From an uncultured Actinomycetota bacterium (GTDB taxonomy: Bacteria; Actinomycetota; Actinomycetes; JAHEKZ01): a stretch of 64,000 bases of DNA. Shown here one piece after another: positions 1,068 through 60,313 of the stretch (position 1 is its first letter; every line of letters starts with the position of its first letter). The stretch is from assembly GCA_963824605.1 (NCBI GenBank), contig CAWGPZ010000009.1, positions 127,763 to 191,762 of the forward strand, written 5' to 3'. The notes under the pieces are model-generated. The model did no database searches. It was not told the origin of the DNA and worked only from the letters and a program-made list of their open reading frames with translations. Position numbers and translations under genes: made by a program.

Positions 1068-1732
1068 TGGGCACGAACCAGTGCGCGGCGGTTTTCGAGG
1101 AGTTCTTTGGCGCGGCGGACCGCGGTCGACGCGTCAGCTGCGTACCCATCAGCACCCACCGCGTCGGCGTACTCCTGAGTGACCGGAGCACCACCCACCA
1201 TCACGATCACCTGATCGCGCACCCCAGCCTTCTCCAACGCATTGATGTTCGCCTTGAACATCGGCATCGTCGTGGTCAAGAACGCCGAGAACCCCACAAT
1301 GTCCGGGGAATGCTCCTCGATCGCGGCGACGAACTTCTCCGGAGCCACCTGCACCCCCAGATCAATCACCTCAAACCCCGCACCCTCCAACATGATGTTC
1401 ACCAAGTTCTTCCCGATGTCATGCACATCACCCTTGACCGTGCCCATCAAGAACTTGCCCACCGTCTCAGCACCGGTCGCCGCCAACAACGGCCGCAACA
1501 CCTCCAACGCCCCCGACATCGCCCGACCAGCGATCAACATCTCCGGCACGAAGAAGTCACCCCGCTCGAACCGGGCACCCACCTCCTCCAACGACGGAAT
1601 CAACGCCTCGAACAACAACGTCTCAGGACCCATCCCCAACCCAAGACCATCATTGGTCAACTCCAACACCGCCGGCGCATTACCCACCAACGTCTCGTCG
1701 AACAACCCCTTCAAAATCTCCTCAGGCGTCAT
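1064..1732 (-). CDS. Stand-alone corrinoid (cobalamin-binding) protein of a methyltransferase system
   Basis: Cap domain (FVPEMLIAGRAM) plus B12 motif GTVKGDVHDIGKN, SAFLTTT, VGGAP; start moved to MTPEEILKG. Confidence 0.9.
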   Translation of the reverse strand: MTPEEILKGLFDETLVGNAPAVLELTNDGLGLGMGPETLLFEALIPSLEEVGARFERGDFFVPEMLIAGRAMSGALEVLRPLLAATGAETVGKFLMGTVKGDVHDIGKNLVNIMLEGAGFEVIDLGVQVAPEKFVAAIEEHSPDIVGFSAFLTTTMPMFKANINALEKAGVRDQVIVMVGGAPVTQEYADAVGADGYAADASTAVRRAKELLENRRALVRAQ

Positions 1733-1797
1733 GGTGTGCGGTCCTCCAGGCTTGCGGTGCGGGTCGCTTGACCTGCGCTGGTGTGGGGTCTTGTCGA

Positions 1798-33601: not shown

Positions 33602-34561
33602 CTAGTACGCCTGGGCTCCCGCGTATCGGGCGTTCGCGACCACGATTCCGGCTGGCGAGCTGACCAGACGCAAGGTGTTGAGCGAGGTCTCACCGAAGGC
33701 ATTGGCCCTGGCGCTGGACAGAGCGAGGACACCGATCATCCGCCCTCCTGCCTTGAGCGGCATGGACAGGAAGGTCGCCATCTCGCCTTCGTCCTCCGCA
33801 CCGAGGTAGCCCTCCGGGTCAGCCACCCTCGCCTGCAGATCGCCGACCGCGACGTCGACACCCGTGCTGTCAGTGGCGGCATCAGCGAGCGCGTCGAAGA
33901 ACTCGGAGTACTGCTGCTGTGACGTCTCCCGCGAGACGCGGATGTAGGTAGACCGGTCATCGAGCATCAGGACGGACGCCAGGTCGTAGTCGACCACTCG
34001 GCTGAGAACGTCGAGCACCTCGGCAATCGTCTCTTCGAACCCATGCACTCCGGAAGCGATCTGAGTGACCTCAGACGCCAGCGACGACTCAAAGAGCTTG
34101 CGGTCGAGCAGGTCGCTCACGCTGCCGAAGACATCGTCGTCCTGCATGTCGACGGGGTCGGGGCGCAGCGGCGGCCGTCCGCCACGAGCAGCGTCGGCCG
34201 CGCTGAGCACCTCGTGCACGGCCTCGACGAGCTGCGGGGCCTCGAAGTCCTTGGTCAGAAAGCGGTCAGCACCCGCCTGCGCTCCCCAGTAGCGGTCACT
34301 AGCGGCATCGAGCGAGGTCAGAAGCAGGATTGGGATGTCGGCCGTCCGCCAGTCGTCCTTGAGCAGTCTCGCTGTCACGTAGCCGGAGACCCTTGGCATC
34401 TGGACATCGAGCACGACGGCGTCTGGCATGTGCCGAAACACGAGTTGGACAGCTTCGACGCCGTCCTCTGCTTGAACGACGGTGTAGCCCTCTCGCTCCA
34501 GGACCGTCGAGACGATCCGACGCAGGGTAGGGCTGTCGTCGGCAATGACCACCGTCGGCAT
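33602..34561 (-). CDS. Response regulator, REC + GAF domain
   Basis: ADDS, LDVQMP phospho-Asp, LTS, FLTK; C-terminal GAF-like MPL..IGVLAL. Confidence 0.85.
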   Translation of the reverse strand: MPTVVIADDSPTLRRIVSTVLEREGYTVVQAEDGVEAVQLVFRHMPDAVVLDVQMPRVSGYVTARLLKDDWRTADIPILLLTSLDAASDRYWGAQAGADRFLTKDFEAPQLVEAVHEVLSAADAARGGRPPLRPDPVDMQDDDVFGSVSDLLDRKLFESSLASEVTQIASGVHGFEETIAEVLDVLSRVVDYDLASVLMLDDRSTYIRVSRETSQQQYSEFFDALADAATDSTGVDVAVGDLQARVADPEGYLGAEDEGEMATFLSMPLKAGGRMIGVLALSSARANAFGETSLNTLRLVSSPAGIVVANARYAGAQAY

Positions 34562-34646: not shown

Positions 34647-36854
34647 CTACCGCCCGACCAGCCGCCGCACCGTGTCGACGAGCTGAGACTGATCGAACTC
34701 GCTCTTGAGCAGATAGGCATTGGCCCCGGCATCGAGGCCAGCACGCTTGTCGGCGTCGTCGCCCCGCGAAGTCATGATGACGACGGGGACGCTCTCCCAC
34801 CCTCGGGTACGACGGATGGTCCTTGTCAACGTGAACCCATCCATACCGGGCATCTCCACGTCCGAGAGCACCAAGTCGACGGGGTCGCCGCTGAGGCGCG
34901 CCGCGCCGTCGCTGCCGTCGACTGCCGTCACGACGTCGTAGCCGGCTCCCTCGAGGATCACCCGCTGCAGTTCACGAACCCCGATCGAGTCTTCGACCAC
35001 CATCACGCGCGCCCGTCCAGTGGCAAGCCGGCCGGTCCGCTCGGGAATCACCGGGTCAGCGATGCCGTCGGCCGTCTGAGGAGTGGTGGGAGCATCGAGG
35101 GCGACGCCTCGCGCGTGCTGCTCGACCGCCATTTCCCGAACGTCAAGCAGCAACATCACACTGCCGTCGTTGGCGATCGTGCCTCCACCGATGAACGGCG
35201 GCCTTCCGAGGAAGCCCCCCAAGTCCTTGACGACGACTTCGAGTTCTCCCTCGAGCTCGTCGACCGCCCAAGCAAGCTGCTCTGACACGCCCCCATACCG
35301 GACGACCACACCAACCTTCGTCTCGCGGTCACCGTGCACACCAAGAGCGCTGCCAAGATCAGCGAGCGGGATGGTCGAACCGTGCCGGACAAGAACCGCC
35401 GCCCCTGCAACGGTGGAGGTCTCGACATCGCTCAGGCTGATGGTCTCGACGACATTGGTGACGGGGACGGCATAGCGCTCGCTGCCGAGCCGAGCCACCA
35501 GACACCGCATCACGCCCAGCGTGACGGGAAGCGTCATGATGAAACTCGTACCCTCACCCAGGGTGCTCTCGATCTCAATCGTCCCACCGAGGTCCTCAAC
35601 GGCTGTCCGCACGACATCGAGTCCGACTCCACGGCCCGACGTCGAGGTGACCTCATCGCGGGTACTGAACCCGGGCGCGAAGAGCACCGACATCAGAGCC
35701 TGACCCGTGACCTGCGTATCGGCGGTCAACAGTCCTCGTTCGATCGCTGAGAGCCGTAGCGCCTCCTCGTCGATCCCGTAGCCGTCGTCCGCGACCTCAA
35801 TGACGATCGTTGAGCCTGCGGCCCTTGCGGAGACCGTCACGGTGGCCTGGGCCGGCTTGCCGGCCGCAAGACGCTCGGAGGGAGTTTCACAGCCATGGTC
35901 GATGGCATTGGTCACGAGGTGACGCAGAGCATCGGCAACACCGTCGAGGACACGCGTATCGAGCTCGATGTCCTCGCCGATCAGTCGCAACCGAACATCT
36001 TTGGCGGTCGAACCCGCTACCTCGCGCACCAGCTGCGGGAAGGCTGCAAACACCCGTCGAGCCGGGACCATGGCCAGGCCCATCGCGCCGTCACGTACTT
36101 GCCCGAGGCCGTTCTGAGCATCTTCCATCGAGCCACGCATCTCGCGCGCCGCCGCCTGCAACTGGTCGCCGAGTGCCACCAGACTGTGCACGTTCTCGGC
36201 CACCTCGGACGGAACCGAGGCATCAGTTGCCGTCACCTGACGGAGGGCTCGGACGATGCGAACGTGTTCGGCCGCGAGACCGGTCAGCTCCAGAACGCCT
36301 TGTTCAACCCGACGCACCTCGAGCTCAGCCTCACCCACGACGTCCAAGAGGTCGTGGACACGTCGAACCGGTACGCGGACAGACTCGCCCGTCTTGGCTC
36401 TACCCCTGCCGTCGCTCTCGACCTCCTCCTCGGCGGCGGACAGTCGCGGAGTCTCCACAGGGTTCTTTCCATCGAGCGCATGGTCAAGGGCAGCGACCAC
36501 CTGGGCAAGATCATCGTCGCTGATCGCCCTGGCTGCTCCGGGCAGTCCCCGGCGAATGCCCTCCGCGGACGCGAGGAGGAGGTCGACGAGATCGCGGCGC
36601 GGCTCGAATCGGCCGTCCTTGATCGCGGTCAGTACATCCTCGGCGCGGTGGGCCAGCTCGACGACGTTGTCGAGGCCCCACATGGTGGCGCTGCCTTTGA
36701 CGGTGTGCGCATCGCGTGCAAGTTCCCTGATGAGCTGTCGGGGCTGCGGATGATTCTCGAGCTTCAGGAGCCCATCGCAGAGCGAGGCAAGACGGTCTTC
36801 GACTTCCTGTCTGAAGGTCGCCACCAGCTCGGGGTCATCGGCCCAGCTGCTCAT
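34647..36854 (-). CDS. cheA: Hybrid chemotaxis histidine kinase CheA (Hpt-dimer-HATPase-CheW-REC)
   Basis: AHTVKG Hpt, [32 protein letters not shown], CheW-like P5, C-terminal SDVEMP receiver. Confidence 0.93.
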
Positions 36855-38731
36855 GCGTTCACCAGTTCCTCTGCCGTTCCTGCAAGTGCTGTGTCTGTGC
36901 CTTCGTGATCGGTGGTCTTGAATTGGGCGATGGAGGCGCGGAGGTCGCCTGCGAGGGAGTTCAGCTCGGTAGCAGCAGCCGCCGCCTGCTTGGACCCCAC
37001 CGCATACTGCCGCGACACATCAGCGACCTGACCCATCGCCGACACCACCTGCTCAGACGCCGAACGCTGCTGCTGCGTCGCAATACTGATCTCCTTCGCA
37101 GCCGTCGTCGTCTCATCCACCATCCCCGAAATCCGCTCCAACGCCCCCACCACATCCCGCGCCAACGCAGACCCCGCATGAACCTCCCGCGACCCCTCCT
37201 CAGAAGCCAAAATCGTCGCGTTCGTCTCCGCCTGAATCTGCGTCACAATCGACTGGATCTGACCAGCAGACTCCTGCGACCGCTCCGCCAGCTTCCGAAT
37301 CTCCGCAGCGACCACCGCAAACCCACGCCCATGCTCACCCGCACGAGCCGCCTCAATCGCCGCATTCAACGCCAACAAGTTCGTCTGATCAGCCAACTCA
37401 TCAATCACCTGCAAAATCCGGCCGATCTCCTGACCCTTCTCCCCCAATCCCAACGCCCGAGAAGCAATCTGATCCACCCGCGACGAAATCTGATCCATCG
37501 CATCCACAGACGCCGACACCGCCACCCGACCCTGCTCAGCAAACCCCAAAGTCTCCGAAGCAAACGACGCCACCTGCTCAGCCGTCTCAGCAATCTGAGC
37601 CGCCGTCGCCGCCAACTCCTCAATCGTCGCCGACGTCTCCGACACCGCAGACGACTGCTCAGACGCAGCCGCAGCCTGCTCACGAGCAGCCACCAACACC
37701 TGAGAAGCAGACACCCCAATCTGCTCCCCACCCACCCGCACCCGAGACACCAAACCCCGCAACGACCCCAACGTGTGATCGAAGGACTGTGCAAGCGCCA
37801 CGAGGTACTCGGTGCGTTCGAATCCGAACTCGTTCTCTTCATCCAGGGTCACAAGATTGATCTGAGTGGTCAGGTCTCCTTGCGAAGCCGCCGTAAGCGC
37901 CTCTGACAGCTGACGCACCTGGTCGACCAGATGGGCCTGATCCCAACCCGCGCCCTCTGCCGTGTCGTAGAGCGACTTGCTCACACCACGCACAATCTGG
38001 AAGGCACCCGGGAGCCCGAGGCTCAACGCCAGGAGCAGAGTGACTGTGCTTGAGCCGGCGTCCAGGATCGTGCCCTCGGCAGCGAACTGAGTGGCGCTGG
38101 GCAAGACGAAAAGCAGTGCGAGGAGGACCCAGCCCAACCCGTAGACGAGAACGGTCCCGAGGTAGGCGAGAGCAACGACGACGGCCAGCCACTGGGCACT
38201 GCCGGCTCCACCCGTCCAGATCGCGGCGCTTGCCACCGCAAGAGTCTGCGCCATGCCGAGCCAGCCGTCCCAGACGTCCGTTCGCGAGTAGGTGTGCCGG
38301 CCACGGTAGGCACGGACTGCCAAGGTTGAGACCACCACTGCCAGGATGACACCGAGCGACCAGACGATCCACAGCTGAAAGGGGACTGCGGAGCCTTGTC
38401 CGAGGAAGTAGGTCATACCGAGCGCGATGCTGAACGCAACGAGACCGGCGTGCAGCGAGATGCTCTCCACCATGTTGCGGCGGGTGAACCTCAGCGACGC
38501 TCCCCCCGACTTGGTGCGGTCAATGGAGTCCAAGGCCGAGGTAAGCGCAGCGCTGGCCTCCGCTGACTGATGTGCGCTCACGTCTCCTCCATCAACGGCC
38601 ACAGTGACCGGTTCTTGGAGGTCATCGGCGTGCCCGGACACGGGCTGTAGCCCGTTTGGGGGACCGTGCAGCTCAGATCTGGGGCTGGGCCTCGTGCTCG
38701 ACCCTTCGCGCGGCAGGTCGGGGGTCGTCAC
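36851..38731 (-). CDS. Methyl-accepting chemotaxis protein 1
   Basis: Multi-TM N-terminus, HAMP-like [31 protein letters not shown]. Confidence 0.92.
36919..37780. repeat. MCP signalling-domain repeat, copy 1 (862 bp)
   Basis: Matches 38741-39602 (offset 1822) and 40470-41331. Confidence 0.92.
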
Positions 38732-40313
38732 CGGAGTCCTTGAATTGGGCGATGGAGGCGCGGAGGTCGCCTGCGAGGGAGTTCAGCTCGGTAGCAGCAG
38801 CCGCCGCCTGCTTGGACCCCACCGCATACTGCCGCGACACATCAGCGACCTGACCCATCGCCGACACCACCTGCTCAGACGCCGAACGCTGCTGCTGCGT
38901 CGCAATACTGATCTCCTTCGCAGCCGTCGTCGTCTCATCCACCATCCCCGAAATCCGCTCCAACGCCCCCACCACATCCCGCGCCAACGCAGACCCCGCA
39001 TGAACCTCCCGCGACCCCTCCTCAGAAGCCAAAATCGTCGCGTTCGTCTCCGCCTGAATCTGCGTCACAATCGACTGGATCTGACCAGCAGACTCCTGCG
39101 ACCGCTCCGCCAGCTTCCGAATCTCCGCAGCGACCACCGCAAACCCACGCCCATGCTCACCCGCACGAGCCGCCTCAATCGCCGCATTCAACGCCAACAA
39201 GTTCGTCTGATCAGCCAACTCATCAATCACCTGCAAAATCCGGCCGATCTCCTGACCCTTCTCCCCCAATCCCAACGCCCGAGAAGCAATCTGATCCACC
39301 CGCGACGAAATCTGATCCATCGCATCCACAGACGCCGACACCGCCACCCGACCCTGCTCAGCAAACCCCAAAGTCTCCGAAGCAAACGACGCCACCTGCT
39401 CAGCCGTCTCAGCAATCTGAGCCGCCGTCGCCGCCAACTCCTCAATCGTCGCCGACGTCTCCGACACCGCAGACGACTGCTCAGACGCAGCCGCAGCCTG
39501 CTCACGAGCAGCCACCAACACCTGAGAAGCAGACACCCCAATCTGCTCCCCACCCACCCGCACCCGAGACACCAAACCCCGCAACGACCCCAACGTGTGA
39601 TCCAACCGTCCGGCCAGAGCGACCGTGCCCTCAGCCTGCAAAGTCAACGACGACATCTCTACCGCCAGATCGCCAGCAGCCACCTCATCAGCAGCACCCG
39701 ACATCGCCACCACATCAGACTCGACCGCATGCCGGGTCGCCTGCGCCTCAGCCTGCGCCCGGTACATGCTCATCGTCATCAGGTCAGTCACCGTCGCCAA
39801 CACAATCGCCAGCACAATCAACCCGATCCCACGAGCCGCACCCTCACCACCCCACGAATCCGTCACCACACCAGTGACCACCATGCCTGCGGCGATGAAC
39901 AGGCCAAGGAATCGCGCAACGATGCCGCCATAGACGCCACTCGCATAGGTGATCATCACCAAGGCAACGACGGGGACCGGACCAGCGAGTCCACCCGCAA
40001 AGACCCCGAAGGAGAGCGAGAGAATGAGGGTCACCGATGTGGTGGGCCGATCCCAACGATCGGTTTCTGCGAACGAGTCCCCCCGGGAAACCGCTCGATT
40101 GGCCAGGTAGCTGACAAGCACGACGTTGACCAGGAGCGCGGCATAGAGGCCGGCAAGAGCAGGCCAGTTGAAGTCCAGGAAGGGCTCGAACTTCGCCGTC
40201 GCCCAGATCAGAACTGGCGCGGCGAGCGCGACGCCCACATGCGATGCCACGGTCTCTAACCTGGAGCGCGAGGTGTACGGGATCTCGCTGTAGTCCACGT
40301 TGTCGGCAAACAC
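38673..40313 (-). CDS. Methyl-accepting chemotaxis protein 2
   Basis: GTG start after GAGGAGG; multi-TM; same signalling domain. Confidence 0.9.
38741..39873. repeat. MCP repeat, copy 2 (1133 bp shared with copy 3)
   Basis: Matches 40470-41602 (offset 1729); only four substitutions spotted by eye. Confidence 0.92.
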
Positions 40314-40440
40314 GCTTCCGCGCCTCCTCGGTCCCAATAGGCAGTCAGTTCTGCTTCGGACAGTCACTGCCGGGCCTGTAGGCCGATCGGGTGGCAGTTC
40401 CATGACAGGAACTGCCTTGAGCCGCAGTGTTGACCTGGGG

Positions 40441-42042
40441 TTATCGGTAGGCGGGTTCGTCGGTGGTGGTGAATTGGGCGATGGAGGCGCGGAGGTCGCC
40501 TGCGAGGGAGTTCAGCTCGGTAGCAGCAGCCGCCGCCTGCTTGGACCCCACCGCATACTGCCGCGACACATCAGCGACCTGACCCATCGCCGACACCACC
40601 TGCTCAGACGCCGAACGCTGCTGCTGCGTCGCAATACTGATCTCCTTCGCAGCCGTCGTCGTCTCATCCACCATCCCCGAAATCCGCTCCAACGCCCCCA
40701 CCACATCCCGCGCCAACGCAGACCCCGCATGAACCTCCCGCGACCCCTCCTCAGAAGCCAAAATCGTCGCGTTCGTCTCCGCCTGAATCTGCGTCACAAT
40801 CGACTGAATCTGACCAGCAGACTCCTGCGACCGCTCCGCCAGCTTCCGAATCTCCGCAGCGACCACCGCAAACCCACGCCCATGCTCACCCGCACGAGCC
40901 GCCTCAATCGCCGCATTCAACGCCAACAAGTTCGTCTGATCAGCCAACTCATCAATCACCTGCAGAATCCGGCCGATCTCCTGACCCTTCTCCCCCAATC
41001 CCAACGCCCGAGAAGCAATCTGATCCACCCGCGACGAAATCTGATCCATCGCATCCACAGACGCCGACACCGCCACCCGACCCTGCTCAGCAAACCCCAA
41101 AGTCTCCGAAGCAAACGACGCCACCTGCTCAGCCGTCTCAGCAATCTGAGCCGCCGTCGCCGCCAACTCCTCAATCGTCGCCGACGTCTCCGACACCGCA
41201 GACGACTGCTCAGACGCAGCCGCAGCCTGCTCACGAGCAGCCACCAACACCTGAGAAGCAGACACCCCAATCTGCTCCCCACCCACCCGCACCCGAGACA
41301 CCAAACCCCGCAACGACCCCAACGTGTGATCCAACCGTCCGGCCAGAGCGACCGTGCCCTCAGCCTGCAAAGTCAACGACGACATCTCTACCGCCAGATC
41401 GCCAGCAGCCACCTCATCAGCAGCACCCGACATCGCCACCACATCAGACTCGACCGCATGCCGGGTCGCCTGCGCCTCAGCCTGCGCCCGGAACATGCTC
41501 ATCGACATCAGGTCAGTCACCGTCGCCAACACAATCGCCAGCACAATCAACCCGATCCCACGAGCCGCACCCTCACCACCCCACGAATCCGTCACCACAC
41601 CAACCAGCACGATGCATGCGGAAACCCATACGCCGAGGAACCGGACGATCCAGCCGCTGTACACGCTGGTTGCGTAGGTGATGGGAATGAGGAGCGCCAC
41701 AGGCACCGGACCGTTCAAGCCACCCCCCGCGATGGCCGCTCCCGTCGTCGCCGCGAAAGCGACCGTCATCGTGGGAATCTCCCACCGGTCAACAGCCTCA
41801 TAGTGGTCGCCACGGCCAACGGCACGGAACGCCATCAGAACGGCGAAGGCCGTATTCGCCACCAACACGGTGATGAAGACGGCGCCGAGCCACATCGTGA
41901 TCTCCACCGCCGGCAGCACGATGGCAGTGGTCGCGATGAGGAGCGCGACTGCAGCCGTCAGGGCACCATGAGACGTGATCGTCTCCCACATCGCCCGGCG
42001 CGTATAGGGCACCAGGGTGTAGTCGACGTCGTCGTCCAGCAC
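40441..42042 (-). CDS. Methyl-accepting chemotaxis protein 3
   Basis: GTG start after GGAGG; multi-TM; same signalling domain. Confidence 0.92.
40470..41602. repeat. MCP repeat, copy 3
   Basis: Near-identical to copy 2. Confidence 0.92.
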
Positions 42043-42167
42043 GACAAATCAGTCCCTCCGCGGATCCTCGTGCCGTGACATCGGCTGACTCGACGCACTT
42101 CTTGATCACGGGCCAGGACCCGATGTCGCCACAGGATCGATCGACGCCGACAGACGGGGAGTGACTA

Positions 42168-42707
42168 TCAGCCCGCAGCTCGGCGAGCAGCGGGGAGCCG
42201 CTCGCGTAGTCGAAGAACGGCTTCGGTCGCCAGAAGCGCAACAGGACCGTCGACGTCGACGACGCCACGCACGAGGGGTGCGATCCCCGTCGCAATCGTG
42301 GCAGGCACCGGCTCGAGATCTCGGGCGTCGCAGTCGAGCAGGCCGGGAACCATGTCGGCCACCAGCCCGACTTCGATGTCGGCCTCGGCCAGCACGACCA
42401 ACCGGGCACTCGTCGGCATCGGCGACAGGGTCGCCCCCACCAGCGGCCTCAGGTCGATCACCGGAAGTACCCGTCCACGCCAGTTGACGACCCCTGACAG
42501 CCATGCCGGACCGCCAGGGATCCGAGTCAACACAGGGACAGGCACCACTTCAGCAACCGACGCCATGTCGACGGCGTAGCGGCCGCCGGCGAACCGCAGA
42601 ATGACGCCGCCGATCGGCGCGGCATCTTCCTCAGATGCCTCATCGGCCACGCCTGCAGGACTAGTCAGGGACTCCACGGACTGACCATCGGCCATCCGGG
42701 TGACCAC
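42168..42707 (-). CDS. cheW: Chemotaxis coupling protein CheW
   Basis: YAVD..VAEV, TRIPGGPAWLSGVVNWRGRVLPVIDL, VGLVAD. Confidence 0.9.
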   Translation of the reverse strand: MVTRMADGQSVESLTSPAGVADEASEEDAAPIGGVILRFAGGRYAVDMASVAEVVPVPVLTRIPGGPAWLSGVVNWRGRVLPVIDLRPLVGATLSPMPTSARLVVLAEADIEVGLVADMVPGLLDCDARDLEPVPATIATGIAPLVRGVVDVDGPVALLATEAVLRLRERLPAARRAAG

Positions 42708-42737: not shown

Positions 42738-44684
42738 TCAACGCGGGGCTGACTCCCGGTCGCCCACGCCTCGAAGGTCAATGACCTGTTCCTCCTGGGC
42801 AGCGGCCAGGACATCGGTGATCTCACGCCCGATCAGCTCTTCGCGCTCGAGGAGTGCGTCACGCAGGGCTTCGACCAGGTGGGCGTTCGACTCGAGCAGG
42901 CCCTTGACGATCACCTTCTGCTCCTGCAGGAGGTCTTCCACGGCGGCGCGACCCGCAGGATCAGCCAGGACACGCCCCACGATGTTGCTGTCGTTCAGAG
43001 CGCTGTTCTGGATCGCGGCAAAGGAGATCAGCGAATCGATCATGCCGCAGGAACCCACCATCTCCGCAGCGACGTTCGTGGCGTAGAGAAGGTCGCCACC
43101 GGGACCTGTCGACACGTCCCCGAAGAAGATCTCTTCAGCGCACTGGCCGCCCATGGCGATCTGGATGAGGGCCAACATCTCGGTACGTGACCTCGTGTAC
43201 ACCTCTTCTGCATCACCGTGGGCGAGCATGCCGAGGGCGGACCGTCGCTTGATGATGGTCAGTACCTCGAGCCGACGCTCAGGTGCCACCAGGAAGGCGG
43301 CAGTGGCGTGTCCCGCCTCGTGCGTCGAGATCAACCGTCGCTCGTGCACGGTGTATGCGACCGGCTGCCCCATTCCCACTTCTTCAACGAGTCTGGCCCG
43401 TTCGACGTCCGACCAGCTCATCTCCGAGTCCCCACGCCGCACTGCGTTCACCAGAGCCTCGTCCAGCAGGTGTTCGATCATGACGGGGGTGTAGCCCTGG
43501 GTGGCGGCGGCGAGCGAGTCGCGACGATCTTCGGTGTCGAGCTCTTCGCCGTGAGACTTGATGCCCAAGTAGTGATCGATGATCTCGCGGCGCCCCGACT
43601 TTGCCGGCAGTTCGAAGGTGAGCCGCCGGTCAAAGCGTCCAGGACGCAACAGCGCGGGATCGAGGTTGTCGGCCCGGTTGGTGGCAGCGATCAGAAGCAG
43701 ATTGGTCGACGGAGGCTCGGGGCGACTCAACTGACGATGTGAAGGCAGGTAGAGATTGGCCCAGTCCACCATCTTGGTGCGCAGCTTCTGCAGGCCGGTG
43801 GGCTGATCGAACGACTGCATCTGCACCAGCAGCTCGTTGACGACTCCGCCTACCCCTTCGCTGGTGATCGAGGCGTTGCTCACGGGACCCGCCGGTGCTC
43901 CATACCCAGAAGGCAGCGAGGTCATCCCCCCACATGCGTGGACGCCCAGCGAAGCAAGGGATGGGGGAAGAGGAGTTGCGGACAAGCCACCACGAGACAT
44001 GGCGATGGCGTCGATCTCTTCGATGAAGCCGATTGCGCCGCCCTCGGCCCGAGCGACCTTGCGCAGCTGCTTGAAGTACGACCGGATCTTGCGCGCGGTG
44101 GCGCCGTAGTACATCGACTGAAAGGAGGTCGCCGATACGAACAGGAAGGGCACCCCCGCTTCGCGCGCCATCGCCTTCGCCAGATAGGTCTTCCCCGTTC
44201 CAGGTGCCCCTTCGAAGAGAATTCCCCGCCGCGGCGTCCCACCCATGTCGTTGGCAAAGGCCTTGTGCGCCAGGAAGAGATTGAGTGATCGAATCACCTC
44301 GTCCTTCACCGGGTCGATGCCCTTTACATCGTCGAGCCGCGTCGAAATCTGTTCGGGGCGGTACATCACGTGGGGCGACCGTCCGGCGCCCACGGTGGTG
44401 CCGACGATGATGAGGAGCAGCGCGCTGAAGAACAGAATGGGCACCAGCAGGTACGCGTCGATACTGGGCAGCCCCCACTCGGCGGGATTGCCGCTGAGGA
44501 TCCGGTACCAGAGATAGAGGGCGGGGATACCGAGCCACACGGCCATGACGCGGAGCCGATGGCGTCGCTTCGACTCTCGGGACGCACCGACGTCGGCGTC
44601 ACCGGCGCGCATCACCGTCGTGCTCGAGAGCGAGGGTCCCGTCAATGCAGACACCTCGGTGGCCTCACGCTCTGTATCTGACAC
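42738..44684 (-). CDS. FtsH-like membrane AAA+ ATPase / M41 metalloprotease paralogue
   Basis: Two TM, GAPGTGKT, FIEEID, ATNRADNLDPALLRPGRFDR, HEAGH, STGPGGDL. Confidence 0.88.
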   Translation of the reverse strand: MSDTEREATEVSALTGPSLSSTTVMRAGDADVGASRESKRRHRLRVMAVWLGIPALYLWYRILSGNPAEWGLPSIDAYLLVPILFFSALLLIIVGTTVGAGRSPHVMYRPEQISTRLDDVKGIDPVKDEVIRSLNLFLAHKAFANDMGGTPRRGILFEGAPGTGKTYLAKAMAREAGVPFLFVSATSFQSMYYGATARKIRSYFKQLRKVARAEGGAIGFIEEIDAIAMSRGGLSATPLPPSLASLGVHACGGMTSLPSGYGAPAGPVSNASITSEGVGGVVNELLVQMQSFDQPTGLQKLRTKMVDWANLYLPSHRQLSRPEPPSTNLLLIAATNRADNLDPALLRPGRFDRRLTFELPAKSGRREIIDHYLGIKSHGEELDTEDRRDSLAAATQGYTPVMIEHLLDEALVNAVRRGDSEMSWSDVERARLVEEVGMGQPVAYTVHERRLISTHEAGHATAAFLVAPERRLEVLTIIKRRSALGMLAHGDAEEVYTRSRTEMLALIQIAMGGQCAEEIFFGDVSTGPGGDLLYATNVAAEMVGSCGMIDSLISFAAIQNSALNDSNIVGRVLADPAGRAAVEDLLQEQKVIVKGLLESNAHLVEALRDALLEREELIGREITDVLAAAQEEQVIDLRGVGDRESAPR

Positions 44685-44837
44685 GCCGACTCCTTGGCTC
44701 AGGTTCGGACCACCCGTTCTACCGAGCGTCACAACACTGGCCACTCTCTCCCAGTAATCCCAGGAGGGACAGTGGGAAGCGCGAGCCGTCACCCAGACGG
44801 CGTATCGATGCCGGCAAAGAGGTCACTCTCGAAACCA

Positions 44838-59190: not shown

Positions 59191-60313
59191 CGAGCAGATC
59201 CCCCAGGCGCTCGGCATCGAGCGCGTGCAGAACCAAGTGATCTCGACCCTCCATCGTCTCGGCCTGCAACATTGCATTGAGAATCGCCTCAGCTGTCGCC
59301 TCGATGACCGCTGCAAACATGCCGTCAAAATGAGGAAGCGCCAGCGTCTGAACCGTAAGGGCCGCAGGCGTCGTCGAGCCCGGTCCCTGGTCGGGCAGAC
59401 CCCGCGCCGCCGTTGAGAATGCGATCATGAGGTCACCCGAGTAGTTGTCGCCCCTGGCCCCGAACTTGGCAATTCCGAGCCCAGCGCGCTGTGCCAAGCG
59501 ATTGAGTTGATGAGGAAGCAACGGCGCGTCCGTTGCGACGACGGCAAGCACCGACCCCGTGCCGGCTGGTACGGCCGTGGCCGACGGCATGCTGGGGATC
59601 GGAATCTCTCGTCGATCCAGCACCTGACCGACTGGCACACCATTCACCTCGAAGTGGCGACGATCACCATGGTTGGCTTGTACGAGGACCCCCACCGTGT
59701 AGGTGGCCTCGCCGCACCCCACCAGGCGTGATGCAGTGCCGCTGCCTCCCTTGAAGCCATAGCACTGAAGCCCTGTCCCGCCACCCACGTTTCCCTCGGC
59801 GATAGGGCCAGAACGGACGTCGTCAAACGCCGCACGCACGTGGTCAGGCGTGATGTGTTGACCGGAGATGTCGTTGAGGATGCCGTCCCATGTCTCGCCG
59901 ACGACCGGAAGCATGATGGGCGTCCGTCCTGGGACCTCCGCCTCCAGGGCAATCATGGTGTCGCGAACAACACCGACACTGTTTGTGTTGGTCAACGCAA
60001 TTGGGCTCGAGAGCATGCCGGACTCGTGCAGCCACTCGAGGCCAGTCAGTTCGCCGAATCCATTCAGTCGGTGATAGCCGGCGAAGATCGGCTCCACCGA
60101 CGGGCGACCGCCGTGCGGGAGCACGACCGTCACACCCGAGCGAACGGGGCCGTTCCCGACATCGAGATGTCCCGATCCGGCGATGACCGTGCAGTAGCCG
60201 ACGCCGACCCCATCGACATCGGTGATCGCGTTCCATGGGCCGGGACGGCCGGTACCGATTTCGATCCCCACGTCGCGCGCACGCACGCCCACTCCCATCG
60301 GTTCCAGGGACAA
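59156..60313 (-). CDS. DmpA/P1 family aminopeptidase
   Basis: NAITDV, NGFGE, PVVGETWDG, EGNVGGGTG, FKGG, cleavage G|SVLAVVATDAP, SGD. Confidence 0.9.
   Translation of the reverse strand: MSLEPMGVGVRARDVGIEIGTGRPGPWNAITDVDGVGVGYCTVIAGSGHLDVGNGPVRSGVTVVLPHGGRPSVEPIFAGYHRLNGFGELTGLEWLHESGMLSSPIALTNTNSVGVVRDTMIALEAEVPGRTPIMLPVVGETWDGILNDISGQHITPDHVRAAFDDVRSGPIAEGNVGGGTGLQCYGFKGGSGTASRLVGCGEATYTVGVLVQANHGDRRHFEVNGVPVGQVLDRREIPIPSMPSATAVPAGTGSVLAVVATDAPLLPHQLNRLAQRAGLGIAKFGARGDNYSGDLMIAFSTAARGLPDQGPGSTTPAALTVQTLALPHFDGMFAAVIEATAEAILNAMLQAETMEGRDHLVLHALDAERLGDLLDGHGRRRYSLR

What the first reader, a model, noticed from the sequence alone, without database searches (positions are those of the whole stretch)
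36961..41602. Repeat-restricted strand-specific G/T codon signature
Seen: within the repeated blocks synonymous positions are almost all G or T on the coding strand (TTG GGG TCG TTG CGG GGT TTG GTG TCT..ATT GGG GTG TCT GCT TCT), whereas flanking unique DNA uses the usual CTC/GCC/ATC/GGC. The + strand is visibly C/A-rich and the bias tracks the repeat boundaries. Inference: a directional, strand-asymmetric C-to-T (and A-to-G) process acts on recombining repeats, for example biased heteroduplex resolution. Most actinobacteria use NucS/EndoMS instead of MutSL, which could be relevant.
Basis: partly seen in the sequence, partly recalled or inferred. Interest (0 to 1): 0.78.

Follow-up and report, generated by a model that had tools for sequence, protein, structure and literature searches.

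The report
GRINS-type skewed repeats in chemoreceptor genes
Three neighbouring chemoreceptor genes share a near-identical stretch whose silent codon positions are almost all G or T, a rare pattern already named GRINS, and comparison with other genomes suggests it arises when gene copies overwrite each other in bacteria that rely on the NucS mismatch-repair enzyme.

Summary
Three tandem MCP genes share a 0.86-1.15 kb block (99-100% identical). In it, 92-96% of third codon positions are G or T on the coding strand, against 0.47 genome-wide. The edges match the repeat edges to within a few codons, except for a short C/A-rich 3' tail.

The block is neither foreign nor a transcript-wide effect. In 12 of 12 genomes with gene-converted MCP blocks the bias sits in those blocks only. 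Single-copy orthologues lack it. A second, unrelated repeat in the window (B12-binding domain) shows the same bias.

[quoted passage not shown] All GRINS criteria are met here, so this is a new member of a known kind.

The new lead is a link to NucS, which repairs only G/T, G/G and T/T mispairs. Among Actinomycetota, tuf genes have G/T-rich third positions (K3 at least 0.68) in 14 of 22 NucS-bearing genomes and 0 of 28 without full-length NucS. This fits strand-polar biased gene conversion filtered by NucS. Its transitions-only reading is not, because C-to-G dominates at fourfold sites.

The parts
36851..38731 (-). mcp1, methyl-accepting chemotaxis protein gene (the longest ORF; the true start is not determined)
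   Evidence: Pfam MCPsignal, E 6.3e-44; ORF list
38673..40403 (-). mcp2, methyl-accepting chemotaxis protein gene
   Evidence: Pfam MCPsignal, E 2.3e-43
40441..42042 (-). mcp3, methyl-accepting chemotaxis protein gene
   Evidence: Pfam MCPsignal, E 2.1e-43
36917..37780 (-). Repeat copy 1 (864 nt). It is a GRINS-type block that encodes the signalling domain.
   Evidence: 100% identical to 38739-39602. Mean |GC skew| 0.40 and |TA skew| 0.22 in 150-nt windows.
38739..39892 (-). Repeat copy 2 (1152 nt). It includes a 288-nt 5' extension shared only with copy 3.
   Evidence: 99.1% identical to 40470-41621. Mean |GC skew| 0.39 and |TA skew| 0.25. K3 of the extension is 0.87, against 0.43-0.52 in its closest homologous stretches, G001_2 and G004_7.
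40470..41621 (-). Repeat copy 3 (1152 nt)
   Evidence: In the core tract only two differences from copies 1 and 2 remain, both C/T.
36962..37780 (-). G/T-third-position tract of mcp1. The equivalent tracts are 38784-39892 in mcp2 and 40513-41621 in mcp3.
   Evidence: Third-position strings; sequence read directly
36920..36961 (-). C/A-ending tail: 14 codons inside the repeat, where the skew changes sign. The equivalent tails are 38742-38783 and 40471-40512.
   Evidence: Third bases read CCCACCCCCCCCAC. Tail K3 (17 codons) is 0.12-0.35 in the genus g1 and G017 arrays shown, against 0.35-0.71 in 19 single-copy orthologues. G019 is an exception at 0.53-0.71.
1080..1733 (-). Second GRINS-type block in the window. 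It is the B12-binding domain of a corrinoid protein gene and is 99.7% identical to G000:C6:117141-117794.
   Evidence: Pfam B12-binding and B12-binding_2. K3 is 0.70-0.90 inside the block. Mean |GC skew| 0.37 and |TA skew| 0.23. It evolves in concert in 5 genomes.
34647..36854 (-). cheA-type hybrid kinase gene (Hpt, HATPase_c, CheW, REC). Same cluster, ordinary codon usage.
   Evidence: Pfam; K3 0.51
33602..34561 (-). REC-GAF response regulator gene, the likely output of the cluster
   Evidence: Pfam Response_reg and GAF_2
42168..42707 (-). cheW gene
   Evidence: Pfam CheW, E 3.5e-28
42738..44792 (-). FtsH-like AAA protease gene upstream of the cluster, ordinary codon usage
   Evidence: Pfam AAA and Peptidase_M41; K3 0.50
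38604..40259 (+). Long antisense ORF (also 40300-42078 and 36905-37906). It is a by-product and not a gene.
   Evidence: No Pfam match. Sense third positions pair with antisense first positions. G/T-ending sense codons therefore remove all antisense codons that begin with T, which includes all stop codons (inference).

Best explanation
What it is. The region holds three tandem chemoreceptor (MCP) genes of a Wsp-like chemosensory cluster. Their signalling-domain halves are kept near-identical by ongoing gene conversion. The converted block is a GRINS (genetic repeat of intense nucleotide skews).

Shown here: the G/T bias at synonymous sites is confined to stretches that evolve in concert, in this genome and in its relatives. 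It fades in orthologues that have no partner copy.

Inferred mechanism: biased gene conversion filtered by the NucS/EndoMS mismatch endonuclease.
1. NucS acts only on G-T, G-G and T-T mispairs.
2. When one strand from one copy pairs with the complementary strand of another copy, a transferred G or T that faces a resident G or T is removed. Every mispair that contains a C or an A escapes and can become fixed.
3. On the sense of the transferred strand, changes towards C/A are therefore accepted and changes towards G/T are rejected. The opposite strand drifts to G/T.
4. If conversion starts preferentially from fixed ends of the block, the polarity is fixed relative to the block and not to the replication fork. 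This would give a G/T-rich coding strand over most of the block and a short C/A-rich zone at the 3' end.
5. Background GC pressure then decides between G and T, giving G at fourfold sites and T at twofold pyrimidine sites.
For: (1) Concerted evolution.
- Array copies are 96-100% identical within each of 7 genomes and 77-98% identical between genomes.
- The two B12 blocks are 98-100% identical within each of 5 genomes and 82-98% between genomes, and their flanks are unrelated.

(2) The bias tracks converted stretches.
- The data set is 85 MCP genes from 39 genomes, cut into 1580 bins of 20 codons. G018 was dropped because its ORFs are fragmented.
- Bins with an own-genome partner at 97% identity or more have mean K3 0.89 (n=591). 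Without the tail bins the mean is 0.93 (n=527).
- Bins with a partner below 85% have mean K3 0.53 (n=509).
- Bins of genes with no paralogue fetched have mean K3 0.47 (n=437).
- In 12 of 12 genomes that have converted bins, K3 is 0.80-0.98 in those bins and 0.50-0.71 in the other bins.
- Block families with different edges each show the bias exactly within their own edges: the main array, the mcp2/mcp3 extension, the G007_2/G007s pair 55 kb apart, and the G027 pair in another family.

(3) The pressure acts on DNA and not on decoding.
- At 182 conserved-residue columns, Leu goes from CTC .39/CTG .53/TTG .05 to TTG .97. Asp GAC .99 becomes GAT .95. His CAC 1.0 becomes CAT 1.0.
- Arg AGG stays rare, at .02-.03.

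(4) It is not transcript-wide. The unique halves of the same genes and the neighbouring genes are ordinary.

(5) It does not follow the replichore. The two B12 copies lie on opposite replication strands, judged from the skew of their 20-kb flanks, in all 5 genomes checked. Both are G/T-rich on the coding strand.

(6) NucS association.
- I stated the prediction in my working.
- Of 30 Actinomycetota genomes with two tuf copies (96.6-100% identical), 10 of 12 with full-length NucS have tuf K3 of 0.68 or more. None of the 18 without it do; their maximum is 0.65.
- With one-copy genomes added, the counts are 14 of 22 against 0 of 28.
- Within-family contrasts: family f82, pair 0.76 against single 0.39; f57, pair 0.72 against singles 0.43; f75, pair 0.68 against single 0.46.
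- The fusA 3' ends directly upstream of K3-rich tuf genes are ordinary, at 0.42-0.51.
- E. coli tuf has K3 0.50-0.51. That E. coli uses MutS-type repair comes from the control line.

(7) NucS is present in the MCP lineages. NucS_C is uninterrupted in 5 of 5 array-bearing relatives, and MutS_V is found in 0 of 5.

(8) Published biochemistry and genetics.
- In M. smegmatis oligo recombination, only dG-dG, dG-dT and dT-dT mispairs brought by the incoming strand are removed, in a NucS-dependent 5-6 nt patch. dC-dC, dA-dA, dG-dA, dA-dG, dC-dA, dA-dC and dT-dC persist (PMC11551744, abstract and passages read; PMC11551767, abstract read).
- NucS lowers recombination between 85-95% identical repeats but not between identical ones (PMC5290159, passages read).
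Against: - GRINS were reported in 53-90% of genomes sampled from five phyla and in some eukaryotic PKS genes (PMC8256042 section 10; PMC10394414 passages). Most of those organisms do not use NucS (my own knowledge). Many of those GRINS lie in transposases, and the 0.15 threshold is only a little above the background I measured (mean |GC| 0.10 and |TA| 0.14 for this window). I did not test whether they are the same phenomenon.
- Exceptions in the tuf test. G057 has NucS and a 99.3% identical pair, but K3 is 0.43. G272 has NucS and a 96.6% identical pair, and K3 is 0.57. G180 has no full-length NucS, and K3 is 0.65.
- Four NucS-bearing genomes with only one detected tuf have K3 0.75-0.96. Three of these genes sit on contigs of 9-16 kb in fragmented assemblies, so their copy number is unsure. 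G339 sits mid-contig.
- Three genomes I counted as 'without NucS' (G295, G180, G208) have partial hits of 25-29 bits, formally above the 24-bit cut-off. If they are counted as NucS-bearing, the pair tally becomes 10 of 15 against 0 of 15.
- NucS presence is clustered on the tree. The genomes are kin, so the counts overstate independence. Another factor that is inherited together with NucS could be the cause.
- The fixed heteroduplex polarity is assumed and not shown. The strong asymmetry (a G/T zone of 270-365 codons against a C/A tail of 14) is unexplained.
- G000's own nucS reads as split by a frameshift near C13:59772. An earlier scan note says that this assembly carries probable single-base errors.
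- No experiment shows NucS acting on recombination heteroduplex base by base.
Confidence: 0.55

Rival explanations
1. Mutagenesis linked to recombination or to single-stranded DNA, independent of NucS. One strand of the block is repeatedly exposed, for example as resected 3' tails or in R-loops. C deaminates to U and A to hypoxanthine, which drives that strand to G/T.
For: G/T enrichment is the classical signature of exposed single strands (established knowledge of replication skew). A recurrent break at the tract/tail junction would expose the coding strand upstream and the antisense strand downstream, which matches the sign switch at 36961/36962. This is one of the ideas in PMC8256042 (Discussion read).
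Against: - At fourfold sites C is replaced by G far more often than by T (17 against 5). A>T changes also occur.
- The model predicts no dependence on NucS. Yet 0 of 18 concerted tuf pairs without full-length NucS reach K3 0.68, against 10 of 12 with it.
- Transcription-linked exposure would affect the whole transcript, but the unique halves of the same genes are ordinary.
- By my recollection of spontaneous deamination rates, rare and brief recombination intermediates give too small a flux to outrun background mutation. I did not compute this.
Confidence: 0.1
2. Skew first, conversion second (the published GRINS proposal). An error-prone polymerase or tautomeric mispairing creates a skewed stretch in one copy. 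Its low complexity then makes it spread by gene conversion.
For: Proposed in PMC8256042 (Discussion read). Skewed stretches without an identical partner exist: G000:C8 MCP at 0.65-0.99, and G003s, G005s and G001s.
Against: - The partner-less skewed MCPs are orthologues of a gene that has a 99-100% identical partner in G007. They have a weaker bias (0.6-0.85 against 0.9-0.99), which reads as decay after loss of the partner.
- The 288-nt extension is skewed only in the two genomes where it is duplicated, G000 and G005. In both, the block and bias edges coincide.
- The proposal gives no reason for the NucS association.
Confidence: 0.1
3. A lineage factor that is co-inherited with NucS, for example another recombination or repair protein of NucS-bearing Actinomycetota, causes the bias. 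NucS itself would be only a marker.
For: NucS presence is phylogenetically clustered. G057 has NucS and a concerted tuf pair without the bias. PMC8256042 found RuvA variants associated with GRINS number within Streptomyces (section 10 read).
Against: The bias alphabet {G,T} is exactly the set of bases that make up the NucS substrates G-T, G-G and T-T (PMC11551744, PMC11551767). An unrelated factor would match this only by coincidence. Of the two possible strand-asymmetric base partitions, one would match by chance.
Confidence: 0.15
4. Selection on the RNA or on translation of the domain. Examples are a C-poor, G-rich message that escapes Rho, R-loop control, or special codon preferences.
For: The sense RNA of the tract is G-rich and C-poor (coding-strand GC skew +0.39-0.40).
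Against: - Single-copy orthologues that encode the same domain are ordinary: 19 genomes at K3 0.40-0.54, and G016 at 0.63.
- Three unrelated proteins show the bias (MCP, corrinoid protein, EF-Tu).
- Leu TTG over CTG is not a wobble effect.
- fusA in the same operon as a skewed tuf is ordinary.
Confidence: 0.04
5. The block was imported from a donor genome with G/T-ending codon usage.
For: The composition of the block is atypical for the genome.
Against: - The block is present in all 19 of 19 family genomes searched.
- It follows the species relationships: 98% identity to G005, 95% to G007, 77-79% to G017.
- The strength of the bias varies with copy status and not with ancestry.
- I know of no genome whose general codon usage has C3 of 0.01-0.05 (recalled, not searched).
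Confidence: 0.02

Closest known systems
[quoted passage not shown]
   Same: - Duplicated coding stretches of 0.5-1.4 kb with high identity inside one genome.
- Intense GC and TA skews of the same sign, strongest at third codon positions.
- Abrupt switches between G+T-rich and C+A-rich segments on one strand.
- Association with gene conversion.
- Most common in Actinobacteria.
   Different: GRINS were described in assembly-line polyketide synthase modules, with transposases as the main other carriers. They were presented as accelerating diversification. Here the carriers are chemoreceptor signalling domains, a corrinoid protein and (in other genomes) EF-Tu, and conversion conserves a shared domain. 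The paper leaves the mechanism open. Its main text has none of the words NucS, mismatch, tuf or chemotaxis.
GC-biased gene conversion (gBGC)
   Same: A transmission bias during repair of recombination heteroduplex. It acts like selection on synonymous sites and is confined to recombining sequence.
   Different: gBGC favours G and C equally on both strands. Here T3 rises (0.00-0.10 to 0.11-0.34) and C3 falls (0.42-0.58 to 0.01-0.22) on one strand only. The partition is keto/amino and strand-polar.
NucS/EndoMS non-canonical mismatch repair and its block on homeologous recombination (PMC5290159, PMC11551744, PMC11551767)
   Same: The substrates G-T, G-G and T-T consist of exactly the two bases that accumulate. 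NucS is present in the lineages that carry the bias.
   Different: I found no paper that links NucS to composition skews in repeats. The nearest is a 2026 preprint on M. tuberculosis (PMC13061034, one passage read). It notes T>C enrichment in paralogous regions and suggests that NucS repair is reduced during recombination.
Replication-strand compositional skew (leading strand rich in G and T)
   Same: The same base partition, G+T against C+A.
   Different: The replichore skew here is about 0.03, against about 0.3-0.4 in the blocks. The two B12 copies lie on opposite replication strands and keep the same polarity relative to the gene.
Concerted evolution of tufA/tufB and other prokaryotic paralogues (PMC6053082, passages read)
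   Same: Long-lasting gene conversion between dispersed or tandem paralogues with unrelated flanks.
   Different: That survey does not report any strand-skewed composition: its main text has no occurrence of 'GC content' or 'biased' and one of 'codon usage'. E. coli tuf has K3 0.50-0.51.

Membership tests
GRINS (definition in PMC8256042, Results and Methods read) | Duplicated region longer than 500 bp | tested here: met
   864, 1152 and 1152 nt for the MCP blocks, 654 nt for the B12 block
GRINS | More than 80% DNA identity to another region of the same cluster or genome | tested here: met
   99.1-100% for the MCP blocks and 99.7% for the B12 block
GRINS | Mean absolute GC skew and TA skew both above 0.15 (150-nt windows, 30-nt step) | tested here: met
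   |GC| 0.37-0.40 and |TA| 0.22-0.26 in the four blocks. The unique halves have |GC| 0.06-0.07, but their |TA| is also 0.21-0.27, so here the GC skew is the discriminating term.
GRINS | Skew concentrated at third codon positions (a described property, not part of the formal definition) | tested here: met
   Array against single-copy orthologues: K3 0.91 against 0.46, K1 0.67 against 0.58 (mostly Leu TTG), K2 0.39 against 0.38
GRINS | Abrupt change between G+T-rich and C+A-rich stretches on one strand (a described property) | tested here: met
   The coding-strand GC skew goes from +0.2-0.5 to -0.35 to -0.48 within about 45 nt around 36960. Third bases of the tail are CCCACCCCCCCCAC.
GRINS | GC and TA skews positively correlated window by window (a described property) | tested here: inconclusive
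   r = 0.11-0.16 inside the MCP blocks, where both skews are uniformly high, and 0.58 in the B12 block
GRINS | Association with gene conversion (paralogues more alike than orthologues) | tested here: met
Methyl-accepting chemotaxis proteins (Pfam PF00015) | MCP signalling domain above the curated cut-off | tested here: met
   148-150 bits against a cut-off of 34.6, in all three genes
GC-biased gene conversion | Strand-symmetric gain of G and C at the expense of A and T in recombining sequence | tested here: not met
   C3 falls to 0.01-0.22 and T3 rises to 0.11-0.34. The GC fraction of the 1-kb windows that hold the blocks is 0.62-0.64, against about 0.66 for neighbouring windows.
Diversity-generating retroelement | Reverse transcriptase, plus a template/variable repeat pair that differs at adenines | tested here: not met
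   No RVT_1 match in the 99.4% complete genome. The copies are identical and not A-variable.
Repeat-induced point mutation (fungal RIP) | C-to-T changes on both strands of duplicates, which inactivate them | tested here: not met
   The changes are synonymous, lie on one strand and include C>G. The reading frames are intact.

The most novel reading that the evidence does not exclude
GRINS are a by-product of NucS/EndoMS, and they are not elements with their own 'life cycle'. NucS sees only G/T-containing mispairs, so gene conversion in NucS organisms is strand-polar and keto-biased. Any pair of sequences kept in concert long enough is recoded to G/T on one strand. This would explain the unexplained PKS GRINS of Streptomyces. 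It would define a new kind of biased gene conversion (keto-biased and strand-polar). It would also predict the same signature in NucS-bearing archaea.
Probability: 0.5. Interest if true: 0.88.

Novelty: new member of a known kind. Interest (0 to 1): 0.72.

Why it matters
The GRINS authors called these repeats unprecedented and left their origin open. They matter for how polyketide antibiotic pathways diversify and for engineering those pathways.

This locus and its relatives add three things.

1. GRINS occur in ordinary sensory, metabolic and translation genes. There, conversion preserves a shared domain and does not diversify it.

2. Natural within-family contrasts show that the skew follows conversion and fades without it. 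The contrasts are the same gene single against duplicated, and partner present against partner lost.

3. The skew in tuf is found only with full-length NucS. This turns 'mechanism unknown' into a one-gene knockout experiment in standard laboratory actinobacteria.

If the NucS link holds, it is a new form of biased gene conversion. It can override strong codon-usage selection: EF-Tu genes reach C3 of 0.04-0.08. It would also mislead codon-usage, horizontal-transfer and selection tests in Actinomycetota.

Tried and rejected
- Retro-transfer or a DGR-like origin. The fixed 3' edge and variable 5' edge suggested it, but there is no reverse transcriptase in the genome.
- An overlapping antisense gene. 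The long + strand ORFs have no Pfam match. They would use only codons that start with A or C, so they are a by-product.
- 'All repeats carry the bias'. This is false. The long inter-contig repeats of 82-98% identity (C6/C15, C11/C17, C12/C17, C6/C13) have no skew.
  - The 99.5% inverted repeat C4:94771-95586 / 77515-78331 has no skew. It was found in 0 of 13 other genus genomes, with only 70-75% matches elsewhere, so it looks young.
  - The 99.85% repeat at C14:166159 / 171614 also has no skew. Its age was not tested.
- One search used an inexact query. Its result is not used, and one search replaces it.
- The replichore as the cause. It fails for the B12 pair. One caveat remains: one-way conversion from a 'master' copy could still export a replication-linked bias.
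- Polarising the mutation spectrum to separate deamination from a conversion filter. This was inconclusive. The sites are near saturation, and background GC pressure favours G over T in either model.
- Earlier notes of this scan near the locus: nothing relevant on the skew.
- Literature searches did not find the phenomenon. One search did (GRINS).
They list the gene families that overlap GRINS and the profiling hits. They might already include MCP or tuf genes, or a repair gene.

Full report
1. WHAT IS THERE

The finding covers three tandem genes on the - strand (36851-38731, 38673-40403, 40441-42042). Each carries a Pfam MCP signalling domain. They sit in a chemosensory cluster made of:
- an FtsH-like protease gene (42738-44792),
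- cheW (42168-42707),
- the three MCP genes,
- a CheA-CheW-REC hybrid kinase gene (34647-36854),
- a REC-GAF regulator gene (33602-34561).

Earlier notes of this scan describe the single-MCP form of this cassette in related genomes. By record titles, the organism's relatives are uncultured Actinomycetota MAGs. The nearest cultured match is Longivirga aurantiaca, at 78% protein identity.

K3 is the fraction of third codon positions that are G or T.

- The C-terminal halves of the three genes are near-identical. 36917-37780 equals 38739-39602 (100%, 864 nt). 38741-39892 matches 40470-41621 (99.1%, 1152 nt).
- Inside these blocks K3 is 0.96 over the 269-codon core tract and 0.92-0.93 over the whole blocks.
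- In the unique halves of the same genes K3 is 0.37-0.70, and in the neighbouring genes about 0.50.
- C is avoided at every synonymous site, including the first position of Leu (TTG 20, CTG 7, CTC 0). A is not favoured (Arg AGR 0 of 21).
- In a six-frame scan of the 2.77-Mb genome these are by far the longest such tracts.
- In a rough gene set of 2144 genes, K3 is 0.467 +/- 0.052. Only 15 genes have any 50-codon window at 0.8 or more.
- The 5' edges of the bias and of the repeat coincide within 1-4 codons in both the 864-nt and the 1152-nt versions.
- At the 3' end the repeat runs 14 codons further. There every third base is C or A, including the rare CAA and GCA. The skew therefore changes sign inside the repeat.

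3. A SECOND CASE IN THE SAME WINDOW

Window 1080-1733 is the B12-binding domain of a corrinoid protein gene. It is 99.7% identical to the N-terminal domain of a longer gene on contig C6. Its K3 is 0.70-0.90 and drops at the block edges.

4. THE BIAS BELONGS TO GENE-CONVERTED SEQUENCE

MCP arrays of 2-6 genes that share this block occur in all 19 of 19 family genomes searched.
- Copies are 96-100% identical within a genome and 77-98% identical between genomes. This is textbook concerted evolution.
- A second family of the class has the same arrays (G055, G080, G099, G149). A fifth genome reached through a named record (G166, family not given) has a two-copy array.
- Fourteen single-copy genomes are flat at K3 0.25-0.70.

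Pooled over 85 genes from 39 genomes (G018 left out because its ORFs are fragmented), one search gives these 20-codon bins:

| Own-genome partner | n bins | mean K3 |
|---|---|---|
| 97% identity or more | 591 | 0.89 |
| the same, tail bins excluded | 527 | 0.93 |
| below 85% identity | 509 | 0.53 |
| no paralogue fetched | 437 | 0.47 |

All 12 genomes that have converted bins show the contrast internally.

Block families with different edges each carry the bias exactly within their own edges:
- the main array;
- the 288-nt extension shared by mcp2 and mcp3 (K3 0.87; its closest homologous stretches in G001 and G004, which lie outside those genomes' identical blocks, have 0.43-0.52);
- a pair 55 kb apart in G007;
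- a pair in another family (G027).

Orthologues of the G007 pair that have no partner in their own genome (G000:C8, G003) keep only a weaker bias. More distant orthologues have none.

The B12 block is a two-copy dispersed repeat in at least 5 genomes. It is 98-100% identical within a genome, and its flanks are unrelated.

A young repeat specific to G000 (99.5% identical, 0 of 13 genus relatives) has no bias. So duplication alone does not produce the bias, but long-standing conversion goes with it.

5. WHAT THIS RULES OUT

- A foreign donor. The block follows the species relationships, and the bias varies with copy status.
- Transcription, translation or RNA-level selection. The other half of the same transcript and the single-copy orthologues of the same domain are ordinary.
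- The replichore. The two B12 copies lie on opposite replication strands in 5 of 5 genomes, and both are G/T-rich on the coding strand. One-way conversion from a master copy cannot be excluded.
- Retro-transfer. There is no reverse transcriptase in the genome.

6. DIRECTION OF CHANGE

At 182 of 269 columns with a conserved residue, single-copy orthologues use the usual C-ending codons and the arrays do not:

| Residue | Single-copy orthologues | Arrays |
|---|---|---|
| Asp | GAC .99 | GAT .95 |
| His | CAC 1.0 | CAT 1.0 |
| Leu | CTC/CTG .92 | TTG .97 |
| Val | GTC .64 | GTG .88, GTT .03 |

Where the single-copy genes agree on C at a fourfold site, the block has G 17 times, T 5 times and C once. 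In the extension the counts are C>G 13, C>T 10, A>G 3 and A>T 3.

The end state is therefore 'no C and no A on this strand', reached by transversions as well as transitions. Second codon positions do not move (0.39 against 0.38). First positions move mainly through Leu.

7. ALREADY KNOWN: GRINS

A late literature search found Nivina et al., PNAS 2021 (PMC8256042; I read sections 5, 6, 10, 11 and 12).
- GRINS are duplicated regions longer than 500 bp, more than 80% identical, with mean |GC| and |TA| skews above 0.15.
- The skews are strongest at third codon positions, switch abruptly between G+T-rich and C+A-rich, and are tied to gene conversion.
- GRINS were discovered in polyketide synthase genes and are most common in Actinobacteria.
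- The authors state that origin and persistence are unknown. They offer deamination, tautomeric mispairing by an error-prone polymerase, and 'skew promotes conversion'.
- Their gene-association scan was confined to 803 Streptomyces genomes and pointed to RuvA.

All formal criteria are met here: |GC| 0.37-0.40 and |TA| 0.22-0.26. The finding is therefore a new member of a known kind.

That paper's main text has no occurrence of NucS, mismatch, EndoMS, tuf, elongation factor or chemotaxis. Of the five papers that hold both 'GRINS' and 'nucleotide skews', I checked three for NucS and none mentions it.

8. THE NucS LEAD

NucS/EndoMS replaces MutS/MutL in most Actinobacteria. It recognises only G-T, G-G and T-T mispairs.
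- In M. smegmatis oligo recombination, exactly these mispairs brought by the incoming strand are removed in a 5-6 nt patch. Every mispair that contains C or A persists (PMC11551744, passages read; PMC11551767, abstract read).
- NucS also lowers recombination between 85-95% identical repeats (PMC5290159, passages read).
- Applied to a conversion heteroduplex, this rule accepts changes towards C/A on the transferred strand and rejects changes towards G/T. One strand goes to C/A and its complement goes to G/T, by transitions and transversions alike. That is the observed alphabet.
- G000 has NucS_C, read as split by a frameshift, possibly an assembly error. It has no MutS_V.
- Five of 5 array-bearing relatives have an uninterrupted NucS_C, and none has MutS_V.

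9. AN INDEPENDENT TEST WITH tuf

A protein search of 301 Actinomycetota genomes showed that many carry two tuf genes. I fetched 30 pairs. All are 96.6-100% identical in the coding region, and the ten pairs fetched with flanks have unrelated flanks. G000's own tuf is single, with K3 0.43. I stated the expected outcome in my working before the NucS searches.

| Group | Genomes (K3) | K3 of 0.68 or more |
|---|---|---|
| Pairs, full-length NucS | G444 .91, G281 .87, G293 .86, G214 .85, G242 .81, G255 .76, G177 .72, G321 .72, G412 .71, G363 .68, G272 .57, G057 .43 | 10 of 12 |
| Pairs, no full-length NucS | 18 genomes at .36-.53, plus one of them (G180) at .65 | 0 of 18 |
| One tuf, NucS | six at .39-.58; four at .75-.96, three of these on short contigs of fragmented MAGs | 4 of 10 |
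| One tuf, no NucS | ten at .40-.51 | 0 of 10 |

Overall the count is 14 of 22 against 0 of 28.

Three of the genomes 'without' NucS have partial hits of 25-29 bits that formally pass the 24-bit cut-off. If they are counted as NucS-bearing, the pair tally becomes 10 of 15 against 0 of 15.

Further controls:
- Within three NucS-bearing families, the duplicated tuf is biased and the single one is not: f82 .76 against .39, f57 .72 against .43, f75 .68 against .46.
- The 3' end of fusA just upstream of a biased tuf is ordinary, at .42-.51 in four genomes.
- Of the NucS-less pair genomes, six have MutS_V and twelve have neither.
- E. coli tuf has K3 .50-.51.

These genomes are kin and NucS is clustered on the tree. 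The counts show an association and do not prove it.

10. WHAT REMAINS INFERRED OR UNEXPLAINED

- The sign of the bias needs a fixed heteroduplex polarity along the block.
- Conversion initiated from outside the block ends, with the invading 3' strand corrected by NucS, would make each strand G/T-rich in its 5' part and C/A-rich in its 3' part.
- That model fits several observations: the switch at the MCP tail; the 5'-to-3' decline of K3 in G017, G019, G001, the B12 block and several tuf genes; and two IS481-like transposase genes, one G/T-rich in its N-terminal half and one C-rich in its C-terminal half.
- It does not explain why the G/T zone is so much longer than the C/A zone.
- GRINS reported outside NucS-bearing phyla (PMC8256042 section 10) are the main evidence against a general NucS cause. 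Many are transposases, and the published threshold is close to background noise. Whether they are the same thing is open.

11. VERDICT

The testable NucS mechanism is the part that would be new.

Noticed in passing
window 1080-1733 (- strand) and G000:C6:117141-117794: The B12-binding domain block is shared by a stand-alone corrinoid protein gene and a longer fusion gene. It is 99.7% identical and G/T-rich at third positions. It is kept in concert in at least 5 genomes of the genus although the copies lie on opposite replication strands.
   Followed up: yes
G000:C13:59200-59915 (outside the window): The genome's nucS reads as split by a frameshift near 59772, which would remove the C-terminal ~50 residues. 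It may be an assembly error, since an earlier scan note reports such errors in this assembly. Five relatives have an uninterrupted gene.
   Followed up: partly
G000:C17:360409-361452 and G000:C9:86947-88179 (both outside the window): Two IS481-like transposase genes have one-sided third-position bias. The first is G/T-rich in its N-terminal half (K3 0.83-0.93). The second is almost pure C in its C-terminal half (K3 0.07-0.2). The published GRINS survey lists transposases as common carriers.
   Followed up: partly
G000:C4:6747-9095 (outside the window): An NHL-repeat/PKD-domain protein gene has a G/T-rich stretch (K3 up to 0.92) over its two PKD domains. Self-BLAST found no near-identical partner in this assembly.
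   Followed up: no
G000 contigs C6/C15, C11/C17, C12/C17, C6/C13: Long stretches (1-14 kb) are 82-98% identical between contigs and have no skew. They suggest a second strain in the bin or large old duplications (contamination estimate 3.4%).
   Followed up: no
loci L156-L215 (tuf genes of other Actinomycetota): Many Actinomycetota of other classes carry two tuf genes, 15-90 kb apart or on different contigs, that are 96.6-100% identical with unrelated flanks. In NucS-bearing genomes these highly expressed genes have lost most C-ending codons (C3 down to 0.08).
   Followed up: yes
window 38604-40259 and 40300-42078 (+ strand): ORFs of 551 and 592 codons run antisense to mcp2 and mcp3. They are a side effect of G/T-ending sense codons, which leave no antisense codon that starts with T. 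Gene callers might annotate them.
   Followed up: yes
L014 (G018:C3:170500-184500): The MCP array of this relative is broken into many short ORFs, probably by indel errors of the assembly. It was left out of the pooled counts.
   Followed up: no
G000:C17:295565-296077 (outside the window): A tandem repeat with a period of about 90 nt and a strong C/A excess on the + strand (keto skew -0.38). Its coding status is unclear.
   Followed up: no
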